The notes: a model not told the origin generated them from the letters alone. 32,000 nucleotides of DNA from Neisseria lisongii (GCF_028463985.1 NZ_CP116766.1:953235-985234); one strand, 5' to 3'. Positions 9,391 through 25,640 are shown, numbered from the stretch's first letter. A program made the numbers and translations.

Positions 9391-9631
9391 GGTGTAATGA
9401 ATTGCTGCACAATTCAAATCAGGTTTTCAGACGGCTTTAGCATAACCATAATATTTATAGTTAAAACACCGAATTTTCCATACAAAAGCAGGCGTATAGT
9501 AAATCAACCGAAAAAATATGACACCACAGCGAGCCACCCTTCCCCTTATATATTTCACTCCGTTAAGGGAGTGTAAATTTATCAGATAAGCCCTTGACAA
9601 GTTTAATTAACCGACTTTCAAGGGGTCTGAA

Positions 9632-10597
9632 ATGTCAACAATTAACCGTGTTTCTACATATGCTGATGATGTCATCATGCAACCGTTGCCACTACGGGCT
9701 GAATGTGCGCAGCGCATTCAGCTTCCTTGTCTAAATAGTAACAACTGCATTGAGGGTAGCAACAACTCTTCAAATACTGCCAAAACCTTACCAATCGGCT
9801 ATGAAAAATTTCTACCTAATGAAATGAAAGCTGATTTCAACCAGTTTTCTACTTCCCACAGAAAATCATCGGCTGCTTTAGAAATGAATGTCCGGCAATT
9901 TATTGAGGCATTCGGAATTAATCATGTCGGTTTTTTAACGCTGACTTTCGCCGATGATGTCCAAGATGTCAAAGAGGCTTCCCGTAGATTTCACAGTTTG
10001 CGGACGAATTTTTTAAGCAAACATTTCAAGCATTACGTTTGTGTATACGAACGCATGAAAAGCGGTCGTATACATTTTCACCTTATCGTCAATACACGTG
10101 AAAACATCCGCCGAGGTTTGAATTTCAGACAAATACAGGCCCGCAATTATACCAGTGCCAATAAAGCACTGCGACAATTATGGGCTTTGCTTCGTGAAAA
10201 TATGGGCAAGTATGGTTTCGGGCGTTCTGAATTGCTACCGGTTAAGACCAACAGCAAAGGTTTGGCGAAATACGTCAGCAAATATATTAAAAAACACATT
10301 AACAGCCGTCTTCCCGAAGATAAAGGTTACAGGCTGATTCGCACTACGATTGATAAACAGAGTTTATGGAAAATTGCCAACAGTAATTTTTCATTTGTCA
10401 GTGCTGGTTCCCGACTGTGGCGGGAACAGCTTCAGAAATGGATTATTTGCATTGAACCGTATCTTAAACAATATGCCAGACAGGAGTTTGCCCGTGAATT
10501 AAAGCCGATTACCGAAGAAAACTACAGCCAGATTTTAAGCAGCCTAATTAGCCCCAAATGGGCATTTTATAACCGGGAAACCATTTTAAATATGTAA
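9632..10597 (+). CDS. Phage rolling-circle replication initiation protein (HUH endonuclease, gpII-like).
   Basis: 321 aa. Motif 1-like FLTLTF, HUH motif RIHFHLIV and Tyr motif GLAKYVSKYIKKH. It is the first gene of the module. RBS aagggg. Confidence 0.8.
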   Translation: MSTINRVSTYADDVIMQPLPLRAECAQRIQLPCLNSNNCIEGSNNSSNTAKTLPIGYEKFLPNEMKADFNQFSTSHRKSSAALEMNVRQFIEAFGINHVGFLTLTFADDVQDVKEASRRFHSLRTNFLSKHFKHYVCVYERMKSGRIHFHLIVNTRENIRRGLNFRQIQARNYTSANKALRQLWALLRENMGKYGFGRSELLPVKTNSKGLAKYVSKYIKKHINSRLPEDKGYRLIRTTIDKQSLWKIANSNFSFVSAGSRLWREQLQKWIICIEPYLKQYARQEFARELKPITEENYSQILSSLISPKWAFYNRETILNM

Positions 10598-10607
10598 GGA
10601 ATCCATC

Positions 10608-10874
10608 ATGAGCGAACCCCAAAAGAAACAGGGATTTTTTGTTGTTGCTGCATTTGACCGCATGATTGTACGGGAACGTAAAAACGAAGACGGCAGCTAT
10701 ACCAAAACCCATTATGTCGGTTTGATTGTACGTACAGAAGAGGGCACACGTCTGTGTCAGGTACGCACCAAGCAGCCTGAAAAATACAGCCATTACAAAC
10801 TGAATGATATTGTCAATATGGAAGTATTTCCACGGGCATTTAAAGACAATATCTATTATTCGGACGAGACATAA
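10608..10874 (+). CDS. Small phage protein. From its position it is a putative ssDNA-binding protein (gpV-like).
   Basis: 88 aa, directly after rep with RBS aaggaa. The assignment rests on synteny only. Confidence 0.5.
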   Translation: MSEPQKKQGFFVVAAFDRMIVRERKNEDGSYTKTHYVGLIVRTEEGTRLCQVRTKQPEKYSHYKLNDIVNMEVFPRAFKDNIYYSDET

Positions 10875-10946
10875 TCAGAATTCACGGTTCGGGCTGCGCC
10901 GTGATGACCCCAATCAGCAGCCCACATTTTTTTGAAGGAGAAAATT

Positions 10947-11168
10947 ATGAATATCCGAAACTTGAAACACAAAGCGAAATACGCTTTGGCAGTTGCTGCT
11001 GTCAGCGTTTTATCCGCTCCGGCAATGGCTGATGACTTGCTGACAACCGCCACGACTGAATTAGGCGGCTTGAAGGCAGGTATTTTGGCTTTTGGCGGTA
11101 TCGTAATCGGTATTGCTATTGCATTGGCAACCATCCGTGTTGCTAAACGTGGCATTAATCAAGCCTAA
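10947..11168 (+). CDS. Inovirus major coat protein (gpVIII-like).
   Basis: MNIRNLKHKAKYALAVAAVSVLSAPAMA|DDLL... shows a signal peptide with AMA cleavage, an acidic mature N-terminus, a hydrophobic core GILAFGGIVIGIAIALATI and a basic C-terminus RVAKRGINQA. Strong RBS gaaggag. The track ORF begins earlier at a TTG (10932). Confidence 0.8.
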   Translation: MNIRNLKHKAKYALAVAAVSVLSAPAMADDLLTTATTELGGLKAGILAFGGIVIGIAIALATIRVAKRGINQA

Positions 11169-11182
11169 GATAGGATATCGTC

Positions 11183-11485
11183 ATGGGTTATCAAGTCGGC
11201 CGAATCTGTTATGAAACAAAAGAAGAGGCAACCAACGTCTTGATGACCCAAGTTGTACCGACGATAGACAAAGACGGGGTATTGCACCACCCCGTCTTTA
11301 ACGGCACAAACTGGATATTTCATGAACAAGTCATACAGCCGTCCTTCCCAGAGTGTGAATTTGGTGCGTATGCCCAAGCAGGTAGAGAGATAGGCGGTTA
11401 TATGGTTATGGCATTTGTTGCTCTGTTGATTGTTGTTATTTCGGTAAAAGCCATATCGTTGATAAGCGAAAGAGATGAGGAATGA
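11183..11485 (+). CDS. Phage hypothetical protein with a C-terminal transmembrane helix.
   Basis: 100 aa, with TM segment GGYMVMAFVALLIVVISVKAISLI. It sits in the packed phage operon. Confidence 0.5.
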   Translation: MGYQVGRICYETKEEATNVLMTQVVPTIDKDGVLHHPVFNGTNWIFHEQVIQPSFPECEFGAYAQAGREIGGYMVMAFVALLIVVISVKAISLISERDEE

Positions 11486-23623: not shown

Positions 23624-23658
23624 AGGTTAGGTTAGGTTAGGTTAGGTTAGGTTAGGTT
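23624..23658. repeat. Pentanucleotide simple-sequence repeat, (AGGTT)7.
   Basis: aggtt occurs 7 times in perfect tandem, 193-227 nt upstream of the lipoprotein start codon (AACCT on the coding strand). Confidence 0.95.
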
Positions 23659-23798
23659 AATTATTGTTTGATTGTGTTAATTTTTATGGGATATTTAGAG
23701 TTGATAGCCTATTTTCAGATGGCATAATGGCTGGCGACGGAGAAGGTTTTTTAAACAAGGAAGATGATGCCGTCTGAAAATTGGGCTTGCGGTTTGTA

Positions 23799-23916
23799 TA
23801 TAGTGAATTAACCAAAAAATATGACAACCCAAGTGAATCACCCTCCCCTAGCCCCTTCCCGCCAGCGGGACGGGTGGTTCACTTGGGTTGTCATATTTTT
23901 TGGTTAATTCACTATA
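23799..23916. repeat. 118-bp palindromic MITE with the dRS3-like core.
   Basis: The roughly 44-bp arms tatagtgaattaaccaaaaaatatgacaacccaagtgaatcaccc and gggtggttcacttgggttgtcatattttttggttaattcactata flank ...ccccttcccgccagcggga.... A half copy lies at 25373-25437. Confidence 0.8.
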
Positions 23917-24054
23917 TATGGTGGATCCACTTAATACTCCATACAATTTAATCCGATACCTGTAGCAACTGTATTTTTCACCCCGTCGGGCAAAAATACA
24001 AAAACGGTTAGTCTGAAGGCCGGTCTGAACAAAACCGGCAATACTTCAACATGA

Positions 24055-25002
24055 TCAAACAGCACTCACTGCCGCCAAACGATCCCGCATCATCGCATTC
24101 AGAATCGTCAGCAGCTTACGCATACAGGCCGTTACCGCCACTTTGTACGGCTTACCCCGCAAACGCAGACGTTGGTAGAAGTCCTTAATCCTCGGTTCGT
24201 AGTGTGCCGCCACCATCGCCGCCATATACAGCGTTTTGCGTACAGCACTGCGCCCGCCGAAACAGCGGCTTTTAAACTTCATTGTGCCGCTTTCTTTCAC
24301 ATAAGGGGCGACACCTACCAAACCGGCAATCTGTTTATGCGATACTCTGCCCAATTCCGGCAACATCGCACATAAGGTCGCTGCAGTAGTCGGGCCGATA
24401 CCTTTGATGCTTTGCAGCAGACTGCTTTTGTCGCCAAAATGAGTGTCGTTATGTTCTTCGATCTGTCTGTCCAAAGCAGCAATCAGTGCGTCGAAATGTG
24501 CGATCAGTGCTTCAACACTTTGAATCTGTGTTTCATGTACCTGCTGCAAACGGTTTTTTTCGGCACTGCGCATTTCAACCAGTTGAGTGCGGCGGCTGAT
24601 TAAGGCTTCGAGGATTTCTTCTGCCTCACTCGGCGGCGTATAGAGCTGCCGTTCCCAATCGGGCTTTTGTGTGATTACCTGTGCGTAAAACGCCAACATT
24701 TTGGCATCGGCCGCATCGGTTTTGGTGAGTGATTGCGACTGTGCGAATTGGTGCGTCTGACGGGGATTGGCAATGATGACTTTGAATCCTGCCCGGTGCA
24801 GTGCTTTGGCCAATGGGATTTCCAGTCCGCCGGTGCTTTCCATCACAACCAGTGAGACCTGATGTTTTTTCAGGTATTCGATGGTGTGGAGAAAGCCTTT
24901 TTGGTTGTTGGTCTCGGTTTTGGTCTTTTTGGAAGACGTGATGCCGATAACGAAGTTTCGTTTGGCGATGTCGATACCGCCGTAGTTTTGGGTACTCATC
25001 AT
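24055..25002 (-). CDS. IS110-family transposase/recombinase.
   Basis: 315 aa from MMSTQNYGGIDIAK. Alternative starts are at 25017 and 24999. Motifs: VMESTGGLE, KTDAADAKMLAFY, IKGIGPTTAATLCA and LVGVAPYVKESGTMKFKSRCFGGRSAVRKTLYMAAM. Confidence 0.88.
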   Translation of the reverse strand: MMSTQNYGGIDIAKRNFVIGITSSKKTKTETNNQKGFLHTIEYLKKHQVSLVVMESTGGLEIPLAKALHRAGFKVIIANPRQTHQFAQSQSLTKTDAADAKMLAFYAQVITQKPDWERQLYTPPSEAEEILEALISRRTQLVEMRSAEKNRLQQVHETQIQSVEALIAHFDALIAALDRQIEEHNDTHFGDKSSLLQSIKGIGPTTAATLCAMLPELGRVSHKQIAGLVGVAPYVKESGTMKFKSRCFGGRSAVRKTLYMAAMVAAHYEPRIKDFYQRLRLRGKPYKVAVTACMRKLLTILNAMMRDRLAAVSAV

Positions 25003-25010
25003 AAACCTGT

Positions 25011-25124
25011 CTTGCATTCGGTTGTGTTGTCGGGCAACTGTCCGGTTGTGTTGATGGGTTGCCCGGCTTCCCTAAGCTACACAGCGGTTGTTGAACCTTG
25101 GGTGCGCACGGGTGGCGGCCGGGC
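25011..25124 (-). ncRNA. Candidate bridge RNA of the IS110 element at 23964-25164.
   Basis: On the minus strand the stem GCCCGGC (25124-25118) pairs with GCCGGGC (25067-25061). The loop has CGCACCC (25106-25100, left flank plus the C of the core), the hairpin GGTTcaacAACC, and TGTGTAG (25083-25077, reverse complement of CTACACA). Then come ACAGTTGC (25041-25034, the right end) and CAAG (25014-25011). Confidence 0.5.
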
Positions 25125-25640
25125 GGGTGTTGCTTGTTATGATACTGGAAGTTGGATATACAAGGGTGCGAGCCAAAGCACGCACCTGTTCTGTGAGTTT
25201 TAGTCGAAGCCGTCTGAAAATCTGATTTCAGCTTCACAGAAACTCGCTTTACTCGTTTTGGCGAAACCTGCGGTTTTAGCTTTGCAGAAACTCGCTACGC
25301 TCGTTTTCAGACGGCATTCATGGGGAATTTAGAGAACACGTGCATGCTTTGGCATGCACACTACACACAATTCCCCGTCCCGCTGGCGGGAAGGGTGGTT
25401 CACTTGGGTTGTCATATTTTTTGGTTAATTCACTATATATATCTTATTTGAAACAAAAATATGCCGTCTGAAAAGCAGGTTTTCAGACGGCATGAACGTA
25501 AAACTCAATAAACTGCACACTATAGTGAATCAACCGAAAAAATATAACACCACAGCGAGCCACCCTTCCCCTAGCCCCTTCCCGCCAGCGGGACGGGGAA
25601 CAAAGTGCAGGTGGACCAACTTAGCTTGCCGATTTATACA

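What the first reader, a model, noticed from the sequence alone, without database searches (positions are those of the whole stretch)
9545..25164. Three divergent recombinase/guide modules use the same geometry and cut C-C-T|A next to three different palindromic repeat families
Shared geometry across all three elements:
- The donor-side guide equals 7 nt of the right end plus the C of the core: ACACTAT-C, ATAGTAT-C and ACAGTTG-C.
- The second donor guide ((A/C)AAG) lies 9-10 nt before the start codon.
- The target loop is a stem, a 5' strand, a mini-hairpin, a 3' strand, then the closing stem.

The three targets are different:
- The prophage targets ttcccCT|A in the dRS3-like MITE.
- The element at 16531 targets cccaacCT|ACG, beside the palindrome gttgggtctcgacccaac.
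- The element at 23964 targets cgcaccCT|ACA, beside the gtgc(a/g)tgc...gc(a/t)(t/c)gcac hairpins.

The genome's abundant palindromic repeats therefore act as a set of landing pads, each addressed by a matching guide. That would explain how phage and IS copies co-exist without competing for sites.
Basis: inference. Interest (0 to 1): 0.6.

Follow-up and report, generated by a model that had tools for sequence, protein, structure and literature searches.

The report
Three bridge-RNA-guided mobile elements
A Neisseria genome carries two ordinary IS110 insertion sequences and one filamentous prophage that each encode an IS621-like recombinase preceded by a 'bridge RNA' spelling out the element's own ends and its own repeat-borne insertion site, which gives an RNA-guided explanation for how Neisseria filamentous phages choose where to integrate.

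Summary
Three IS110-group recombinase genes (32-34% identical to each other, all full-length homologues of IS621) are each preceded by a 5' stem-loop and two internal-loop modules. The loop strands match each element's own target and own joined ends around a CT core.

Cognate ordered guide matches total 17-18 nt. Non-cognate pairs give 6-10 nt, and none of 5000 shuffles reaches the observed value.

Boundaries are base-exact:
- Prophage: 2 identical copies, 31 empty sites.
- Element e2: 17 copies, 34 empty sites.
- Element e3: 12 copies, 9 empty sites.

The two insertion sequences are ordinary bridge-RNA elements. The prophage is more interesting, because 5.6 kb of inovirus genes sit between its left end and the bridge RNA. 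In 12 relatives from other Neisseria, the 7-nt right target guide equals the reverse complement of each prophage's own right flank. The left guide tracks the host DNA-uptake-sequence dialect (ACGGC versus ACGAC). This phage's target loop alone has been rewritten, to a dRS3-like repeat.

A split promoter (TTGACN, 18 nt, TATATT) is rebuilt at every circle junction.

No expression data exist. "No competition for sites" is untested and partly contradicted. I class this as a new member of a known kind.

The parts
9545..9546 (+). Left copy of the CT core at the prophage junction. It is preceded by the left target half, ...cccttccc.
   Evidence: 30 empty sites carry the contiguous cttccccTaaccc.
9547..16352 (+). 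Nf-like filamentous prophage, 6806 bp plus CT. Gene order: rolling-circle Rep, small ORFs, TspB/pIII-like, G6P-like, Zot/pI, bridge RNA, IS110-type integrase.
   Evidence: Pfam and PHROG hits. A second identical 6808-bp copy lies at genome 1810801, in the same kind of site.
9547..9573 (+). Prophage left end. It holds the right donor half (TATAT...), a -10-like TATATT and a conserved hairpin (CACTCC-GTTAA-GGGAGTG).
   Evidence: The hairpin keeps pairing through compensatory changes in 11 relatives.
15126..15159 (+). 5' stem-loop of the phage bridge RNA.
   Evidence: fold (z = -5.06 for 15100-15311).
15182..15248 (+). Phage target-binding loop: outer stem 15182-96/15235-48, left target guide TTTCCCT 15202-08, mini-hairpin 15210-22, right target guide GGGTTAG 15225-31.
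   Evidence: The right target guide is the reverse complement of CTAACCC, the right flank at 16353-59. The stem shows 3 pair types at one position across 18 relatives.
15267..15300 (+). Phage donor-binding loop: left donor guide ACACTATC 15267-74, hairpin 15275-90, right donor guide ATAAG 15296-300.
   Evidence: The left donor guide equals the right end 16346-52 plus C. The right donor guide is the reverse complement of CTTAT at the circle junction. The same holds in the circular inovirus L001.
15309..16256 (+). Phage integrase, an IS110-group DEDD/Ser recombinase of 315 aa.
   Evidence: Pfam PF01548 + PF02371. IS621 8wt6 E = 1.3e-64 over the full length, with the GID, EAT, D..D and (E/Q)SG motifs aligned.
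16333..16354 (+). Prophage right end: -35-like TTGACG (16333-38), left donor half ACACTAT, right CT core copy (16353-4).
   Evidence: TTGACN, 18 nt, TATATT is rebuilt across the joined ends (10-11 of 12 matches) in this phage and 11 relatives.
16531..17768 (+). e2, an IS110-group insertion sequence with 17 copies in the genome. It lies between cccaacCT and CTacgcc, beside the palindrome gttgggtctcgacccaac at 16512-29.
16567..16723 (+). e2 bridge RNA: 5' stem-loop 16567-94; target-loop stem 16597-608/16657-67; left target guide CCAACCT 16618-24; mini-hairpin 16626-39; right target guide CGTAG 16644-48; left donor guide ATAGTATC 16683-90; hairpin 16691-713; right donor guide ACAAG 16719-23.
   Evidence: Fold z = -2.54.
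16733..17746 (+). e2 recombinase, 337 aa. The true start is ATG 16733.
   Evidence: Pfam. ISCro4 9t56 E = 1.1e-50 and IS621 E = 1.9e-45, aligned from residue 2.
23966..25162 (-). e3, an IS110-group insertion sequence with 12 copies of at least 99% identity. It lies between ctcgcaccCT and CTacagg.
25011..25124 (-). e3 bridge RNA: target-loop stem 25124-18/25067-61; left target guide CGCACCC 25106-00; mini-hairpin 25097-86; right target guide TGTAG 25081-77; left donor guide ACAGTTGC 25041-34; right donor guide CAAG 25014-11.
   Evidence: The fold alone is not significant (z = -0.62).
24055..25002 (-). e3 recombinase, 315 aa.
   Evidence: Pfam. IS621 E = 3.3e-36.

Best explanation
All three elements are IS110-group (IS621-like) bridge-RNA-guided recombination systems.

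**Proposed mechanism.** Each recombinase gene is preceded by a non-coding RNA with a 5' stem-loop, a target-binding loop and a donor-binding loop.
- The 5' strand of each loop is same-sense to the left half-site plus the core C, so it pairs with the bottom DNA strand.
- The 3' strand is antisense to CT plus the right half-site, so it pairs with the top strand.
- The excised circle joins right end, CT and left end into the donor site.
- The RNA bridges that donor to a chromosomal target with a CT core, and the DEDD/Ser recombinase exchanges strands. This leaves CT on both sides.

**The two insertion sequences.** e2 and e3 are ordinary elements of this kind. They are aimed at ..CCAAC-CT-ACG and ..CGCACC-CT-ACA, which occur in repeat hairpins.

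**The prophage.** The third system is the integration module of an Nf-like filamentous phage. The phage genome (Rep to Zot, about 5.6 kb) lies as cargo between the left end and the bridge RNA. The target loop is aimed at TTCCC-CT-AACCC in a dRS3-like repeat.

**What is shown.** Anatomy, boundaries, guide-site matches, covariation in relatives, and homology to IS621.

**What is inferred.** That the RNA is made, binds the recombinase and directs recombination, and that the junction promoter fires only in the circular form.
For: 1. **Protein family.** Pfam DEDD_Tnp_IS110 plus Transposase_20 in all three. All are full-length homologues of the solved IS621/ISCro4 bridge recombinases, with the catalytic D, E, D, D and Ser motifs aligned.
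2. **RNA architecture.** A 5' stem-loop and two internal-loop modules lie upstream of each gene. This matches the published description: 8-9 nt sense on the 5' side and 4-7 nt antisense on the 3' side (PMC11208160, read). The short ATA...TAT repeat flanking the donor is also present.
3. **Specificity.** Cognate guide sums are 17-18 nt against 6-10 nt non-cognate, and 0 of 5000 shuffles reach the observed value. An exact 8-mer left donor guide appears only in cognate pairs.
4. **Boundaries.** Exact boundaries come from 2, 17 and 12 copies with CT on both sides. Empty sites number 31, 34 and 9.
5. **Right target guide covariation, phage clade.** In this phage plus 12 relatives, the 7-nt right target guide (7 distinct sequences) equals the reverse complement of CT plus 5 nt of each prophage's own right flank, 13 of 13.
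6. **Left target guide covariation.** The left guide (ACGGC versus ACGAC) follows the left flank in 11 of 11 (8 versus 3). The left flank is TTCAGACGGC or TTCAGACGAC.
7. **Left donor guide covariation.** The left donor guide tracks five different right-end sequences across more distant relatives.
8. **attP in a circular genome.** The circular inovirus genome L001 carries right end, CT and left end contiguously, matching its donor loop.
9. **Consensus structure.** 18 pairs, 6 with compensatory changes.
10. **Target-loop rewriting.** This phage's target loop is 29-51% identical to relatives, while the rest of the RNA is 72-86% identical.
Against: - There is no transcript or circular-junction evidence. 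No sequencing run could be listed.
- No Rfam family exists to score against.
- The phage left target guide has only 5 Watson-Crick pairs plus 2 wobbles. Several relatives have A at the core-C guide position.
- The e3 fold is not better than shuffles (z = -0.62), and its donor-loop hairpin is not evident.
- For e2 and e3, guides are invariant among copies, so their support comes from site consensus rather than covariation. e2 has no close relative in 97 other genomes of the genus.
- Several e2 and e3 insertions sit in sites with 2-3 mismatches.
- No convincing promoter was found for the phage bridge RNA, which lies 5.6 kb from the junction.
Confidence: 0.87

Rival explanations
1. Recognition is by protein alone. 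The Piv/IS110-type recombinases would read the palindromic DNA or its hairpin directly. The internal sequences that resemble ends and flanks would be protein-binding subterminal repeats or coincidences, not RNA guides.
For: - All targets lie beside hairpin-forming repeats.
- Insertions tolerate 2-3 mismatches.
- No expression evidence is available.
- The donor guides could in principle be DNA-level repeats of the right end.
Against: - Target-loop strands match host DNA outside the element. They change in step with the flank in 13 of 13 phage-clade loci, while the recombinase-proximal stems stay conserved.
- Non-cognate pairings and shuffles do not reproduce the matches.
- The proteins are full-length homologues of IS621, for which RNA guidance is experimentally shown (PMC11208160).
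Confidence: 0.05
2. The bridge RNA and integrase are an independent insertion sequence nested inside a prophage. The prophage would integrate by another route, for example host XerCD or homologous recombination between repeats.
For: - Many filamentous phages use XerCD (established knowledge).
- The module sits at one extreme of the prophage.
- The integrase is closer to IS621 than e2 or e3 are.
Against: - No separate left end lies next to the bridge RNA.
- The right donor guide matches the left end 5.7 kb away at 9547, and the left donor guide matches the right end at 16346-52.
- The whole 6808-bp unit is duplicated base for base between CT copies at two sites.
- In the circular inovirus L001 the two ends abut at CT, exactly as the donor loop specifies.
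- 11 relatives show the same full-length arrangement, 6.8-8.4 kb.
Confidence: 0.05
3. The short matches are chance or post-hoc selection among many possible 4-8-mers.
For: - A naive search for the best match anywhere does not separate cognate from non-cognate pairs for the 5-6-nt guides.
- CAAG and ACAAG occur more than once in the left ends.
Against: - The ordered four-guide score is 17-18 nt against a shuffle mean of 6-7 nt, and 0 of 5000 shuffles reach it.
- The guides sit at homologous structural positions in three RNAs, and in 17 relatives of the phage RNA.
Confidence: 0.02

Closest known systems
IS621 / ISCro4 bridge-RNA recombinases (IS110 family, IS110 group; Durrant et al. 2024, PMC11208160; PDB 8wt6, 9t56)
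   Same: - Two-domain DEDD plus Ser recombinase.
- RNA encoded upstream in the left end, with a 5' stem-loop, target loop and donor loop.
- Sense guide on the 5' strand and antisense guide on the 3' strand.
- CT core.
- ATA...TAT flanking the donor.
- Targets in repetitive palindromes.
- The e2 donor (ATAGTAT-CT-TGTAT) is nearly that of IS621.
   Different: - Only about 32-45% protein similarity range by E-value. Identity was not computed against IS621.
- Different guides and targets.
- In the phage, 5.6 kb of viral genes separate the left end from the RNA. A junction promoter would therefore read into phage genes before it reaches the RNA.
- The phage right target guide is 7 nt long and its left guide is only 5-6 nt.
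Nf1-Nf4 / MDA filamentous prophages of pathogenic Neisseria, which integrate at dRS3 by their own IS110-type transposase (Kawai 2005; Meyer 2016, as cited in PMC7058167)
   Same: - Inovirus gene set: Rep, TspB, Zot.
- Terminal IS110-family transposase.
- Insertion at a CT inside a dRS3-type repeat.
- Multiple copies per genome.
   Different: - The integrase here is only about 39-42% identical to the homologues found in other Neisseria prophage contigs.
- The canonical dRS3 (ATTCCC-N8-GGGAAT) is absent from this genome.
- An RNA-guided explanation was not found in the searchable literature.
Expanded cargo-bearing IS110 elements (bioRxiv 10.64898/2026.08.14.744561)
   Same: - An IS110 recombinase plus bridge RNA mobilising multi-kilobase cargo.
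- Tolerance of half-matched sites.
   Different: - That study reports resistance and plasmid-like cargo and does not mention Neisseria or filamentous phages.
- Here the cargo is a complete, self-replicating inovirus.
ICENmu, described as the first mobile-element family exploiting DNA uptake sequences as integration sites (PMC7371117)
   Same: Relatives of this phage insert at the 12-mer AG-DUS or AG-mucDUS.
   Different: - ICENmu is a conjugative element with an attP that resembles the DUS and its own integrase.
- Here the DUS would be read by an RNA guide.
- The window's own phage no longer uses the DUS.

Membership tests
IS110 family, IS110 group (bridge-RNA recombinases) | N-terminal DEDD RuvC-like domain plus C-terminal Tnp domain | tested here: met
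   PF01548 and PF02371 are above their cut-offs in all three proteins.
IS110 family, IS110 group (bridge-RNA recombinases) | Catalytic D, E, D, D and Ser residues conserved | tested here: met
   The GID, E-A/S-T, D-x-x-D and (E/Q)-S-G motifs align with IS621/ISCro4. Residue numbering was inferred from the alignment.
IS110 family, IS110 group (bridge-RNA recombinases) | Non-coding RNA upstream of the gene (left end), with a 5' stem-loop and two internal-loop stem-loops. In the IS1111 group it lies downstream. | tested here: met
   Folds and a consensus with compensatory pairs. The RNA lies upstream in all three. The right ends are short (22, 89 and 96 nt).
IS110 family, IS110 group (bridge-RNA recombinases) | Loop strands complementary to the element's own target and own donor around a shared core dinucleotide | tested here: met
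   CT core in all copies.
IS110 family, IS110 group (bridge-RNA recombinases) | Sigma-70 promoter rebuilt at the joined right and left ends | tested here: inconclusive
   Strong and conserved for the phage clade (10-11 of 12 matches). Only 8 of 12 for e2 and e3.
IS110 family, IS110 group (bridge-RNA recombinases) | RNA is expressed, binds the recombinase and is required for recombination | not testable with these tools
   No sequencing run was listed.
Inoviridae, Neisseria Nf-like prophage | Rolling-circle Rep, pIII-like TspB, G6P-like minor protein and Zot/pI in one orientation, 6-9 kb | tested here: met
   72% nucleotide identity of the RNA and integrase segment to a circular oral inovirus.
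Inoviridae, Neisseria Nf-like prophage | Insertion in the canonical dRS3 (ATTCCC-N8-GGGAAT) | tested here: not met
   0 canonical dRS3 in the genome. The target is a dRS3-like repeat, ccttccccTaaccccttcccgccagcgggacgggg.

The most novel reading that the evidence does not exclude
Neisseria filamentous phages integrate by an evolvable RNA guide.
- In commensal species, the guide reads the host's own DNA-uptake-sequence dialect. The left guide is ACGGC for AG-DUS and ACGAC for AG-mucDUS. The CT core is the complement of the dialect's AG prefix.
- A 7-nt right guide picks a subset of the hundreds of DUS copies.
- In this genome the target loop alone was rewritten to a 33-copy dRS3-like repeat, even though 172 DUS-CT-TT sites remain available.
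- Integration also splits a strong promoter (-35 in the right end, -10 in the left end). That promoter is rebuilt only in the circle and points into the Rep operon, so excision itself could switch the phage on.
Probability: 0.5. Interest if true: 0.7.

Novelty: new member of a known kind. Interest (0 to 1): 0.5.

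Why it matters
- **A mechanism for an old observation.** It has been known for about 20 years that Neisseria filamentous phages, including the disease-associated MDA/Nf1 group, integrate at CT-containing repeats using a "transposase". 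The site would be chosen by base pairing with a phage-encoded RNA.
- **A natural reprogramming series.** The same donor loop and recombinase clade occur with at least seven different target guides and two DUS dialects. This is the kind of evidence that engineering studies produce artificially.
- **Bridge systems can serve as a virus's integration module.**
- **The two insertion sequences are routine.** They add only the point that several bridge systems with different addresses coexist in one 2-Mb genome.

Tried and rejected
- **Rfam.** The gathering-threshold scan of the whole window gave 0 hits. E-value scans of 14900-16800 and 24950-25250 gave only spurious miRNA-hairpin hits on the long inverted repeat at 14943-15025. 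No bridge-RNA family is in the library.
- **Sequencing runs** for 14900-16354: none was listed. Expression and circle junctions therefore could not be examined.
- **The search for related loci** with the phage integrase found only 39% relatives. The genome search was needed to reach the 53-69% clade.
- **Close relatives of e2** were not found with this query at E <= 1e-70 in 97 other genomes of the genus. No guide covariation test was possible for e2. The same search was not run for e3.
- **A naive "best match anywhere" test** did not discriminate for the 5-6-nt guides. It was replaced by the ordered four-guide score.
- **Left junctions of the more distant Nf-type contigs** (L003-L007) could not be located with a simple pattern. 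The classical Nf types remain untested here.
- **Promoter for the phage bridge RNA.** The only candidate is TGGATA-18-TAAAAT at 15008-37, which is no better than shuffles.
- **Literature.** Searches for a bridge RNA in filamentous phages or Neisseria returned nothing relevant. Subscription journals are not covered.

Full report
**What is in the window.**
- The window comes from a 2.065-Mb single-contig genome of the genus that includes Neisseria. One related locus is titled Neisseria viridiae.
- The dominant DNA uptake sequence is the AG-DUS dialect: 1575 of 2711 ten-mers carry the AG prefix.
- Three ORFs carry the IS110-family domain pair PF01548 + PF02371: 15309-16256 (+), 16697/16733-17746 (+) and 25002-24055 (-).
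- They are 32-34% identical to one another.
- All align over their full length to the solved bridge recombinases IS621 and ISCro4, with E = 1e-64, 1e-50 and 3e-36. The GID, E-A/S-T, D-x-x-D and (E/Q)-S-G catalytic motifs are in register.
- The first gene closes a 6.8-kb block with a rolling-circle Rep, a TspB/pIII-like protein, a G6P-like protein and Zot. This is an Nf-like inovirus prophage.

**Boundaries.** BLAST of the three units against the genome gives the following.
- Prophage: 2 identical copies.
- e2: 17 copies, 97-100% identical.
- e3: 12 copies, at least 99% identical.
- Each copy has CT on both sides and differing flanks.
- This fixes the ends at 9547/16352, 16531/17768 and 25162/23966.
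- Rejoined flanks occur as empty sites: TTCCCCTAACCC 31 times (0.26 expected from composition), CCAACCTACG 34 times (4.2 expected) and CGCACCCTACA 9 times (1.1 expected).

**The guides.**
- Upstream of each gene the RNA folds into a 5' stem-loop, then a long stem enclosing an internal loop with a mini-hairpin, then a second module next to the start codon. This is the architecture published for IS621.
- In the first loop, the 5' strand is same-sense to the left flank plus core. The sequences are phage TTTCCCT (with two U-G wobbles), e2 CCAACCT and e3 CGCACCC.
- In the first loop, the 3' strand is the reverse complement of CT plus the right flank: GGGTTAG, CGTAG and TGTAG.
- In the second loop, the 5' strand equals 7 nt of the right end plus C: ACACTATC, ATAGTATC and ACAGTTGC.
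- In the second loop, the 3' strand is the reverse complement of CT plus the left end: ATAAG, ACAAG and CAAG. It lies 8-9 nt before the ATG.
- The e2 gene must start at 16733. The longer ORF from 16697 would run through the donor loop, and it is not supported by the alignment.

**Is it chance?** I scored, for each RNA against each element's junctions, the best ordered set of four exact guide matches.
- Cognate sums are 17, 18 and 18 nt.
- The six non-cognate sums are 6-10 nt.
- 5000 shuffles per RNA average 6-7 nt, never exceed 16 and never reach the observed value.

**Independent test in relatives of the phage.**
- Homologues of the phage integrase (35-69% identity) occur in 32 of 97 other genomes of the genus. 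One also occurs in a circular 7.5-kb oral inovirus record.
- In that circle the two ends abut as ...ACACTAT-CT-TATATAT..., exactly as its donor loop specifies.
- Across more distant relatives, the left donor guide changes together with the right end. Five versions were seen: ACACTATC, AGTAGTATC, AAACATC, ATATCATC and ACGGTATC.
- In this phage and the 12 relatives of its clade that were examined, the 7-nt right target guide lies 3 nt before the closing stem. It has 7 different sequences, and it equals the reverse complement of CT plus 5 nt of that prophage's own right flank in 13 of 13.
- In the 11 relatives with both junctions recovered, the left flank is TTCAGACGGC or TTCAGACGAC followed by CT. 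These are the reverse complements of the 12-mer AG-DUS and AG-mucDUS.
- The left guide reads ACGGC (8 loci) or ACGAC (3 loci) in step with that flank.
- Such DUS-CT-TT sites number 120-420 per genome.
- The consensus RNA structure of 18 sequences has 18 pairs, 6 with compensatory changes.
- This phage's target loop is only 29-51% identical to the relatives, while the rest of the RNA is 72-86% identical. This indicates a localised rewriting of the address, from the DUS to a dRS3-like repeat. Yet 172 TTCAGACGGCCTTT sites exist in this genome.

**Junction promoter.**
- Joining the right and left ends creates TTGACG, 18 nt, TATATT in this phage. The same arrangement (10-11 of 12 consensus positions) appears in all 11 relatives, although the spacer sequence varies.
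- It points into a conserved, covarying left-end hairpin and the Rep gene.
- IS621 has an equivalent split promoter that drives its bridge RNA. Here the RNA is 5.6 kb downstream.
- The promoter may therefore primarily switch on phage genes after excision. This is inference.
- e2 and e3 junctions give only weak matches (8 of 12).

**The "landing pad" idea.**
- The three guide sets address different, over-represented repeat sites, so the core idea holds.
- The partition is imperfect. e2 occupies the gttggg-N-cccaac palindrome (8 copies), a second repeat ending ctcgctaac...cCT (7 copies) and hairpins of the e3 type (for example cccgcaccCT).
- Several e2 and e3 insertions have 2-3 mismatches to the guides. 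This agrees with the half-match tolerance reported for IS110 elements.
- Whether separate addresses reduce competition is untested.
- The A after CT is not a family rule, since relatives have T.
- The exchange point within CT cannot be read from sequence.

**Comparison with what is known.**
- Bridge RNAs of IS110 elements and their preference for repetitive palindromes are established (PMC11208160).
- Integration of Nf phages at dRS3 by an IS110-type transposase is established (Kawai 2005 and Meyer 2016, via PMC7058167).
- Cargo-bearing IS110 elements were reported in 2026.
- A conjugative element exploiting the DUS was reported in 2020.
- I found no searchable paper that links a bridge RNA to filamentous phages or to Neisseria phage integration.
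- e2 and e3 are therefore routine new members. The phage module is a new member of the same kind, with an unusual layout and an informative natural series of retargeted guides.

**Limits.**
- There is no expression or circle evidence and no Rfam model.
- The e3 fold is not significant on its own.
- There is no covariation test for e2 or e3.
- The classical Nf1-Nf4 types were not resolved.

Noticed in passing
Loci L038-L049 (relatives), not in the window: Relatives of this prophage in other Neisseria insert exactly at TTCAGACG(G/A)C-CT-TT, that is, at the AG-DUS or AG-mucDUS 12-mer. The bridge-RNA left guide follows the dialect (ACGGC versus ACGAC), and the right guide matches each flank.
   Followed up: yes
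window 16333-16354 joined to 9547-9560: A split sigma-70-like promoter (TTGACG, 18 nt, TATATT) exists only when the prophage ends are joined. It is conserved in 11 relatives and points into the Rep operon.
   Followed up: partly
window 9556-9573: Left-end hairpin CACTCC-GTTAA-GGGAGTG, kept by compensatory changes in relatives. Its function is unknown; it could be a transcript 5' structure or a replication or nick site.
   Followed up: partly
window 14943-15025: A near-perfect inverted repeat of about 80 nt between Zot and the bridge RNA. It is conserved with changed sequence in the circular inovirus L001 (1350-1415). It is a candidate packaging signal or complementary-strand origin, and it gives spurious miRNA hits in Rfam.
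   Followed up: no
genome C1:1511654-1513083 (outside the window): The first 232 nt of an e3 copy, ending ...cacgtCT, are followed directly by a complete e3 copy. This looks like a product of recombination at a pseudo-target inside e3.
   Followed up: no
window 16355-16530 and 23860-23963: The three target motifs lie within mosaic arrays of short repeats (NIME-like). The phage right flank, a second e2-type repeat and the e2 palindrome all lie within 180 nt. A dRS3-like palindrome lies next to the right flank of e3.
   Followed up: partly
whole genome G000: The genome has 17 e2, 12 e3 and 2 prophage copies. e2 has no close homologue (E <= 1e-70) in 97 other genomes of the genus, which suggests recent acquisition and expansion.
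   Followed up: partly
window 16697-16732: The longest ORF of e2 starts 36 nt too early and overlaps the donor-binding loop. Annotation pipelines may call the longer form.
   Followed up: yes
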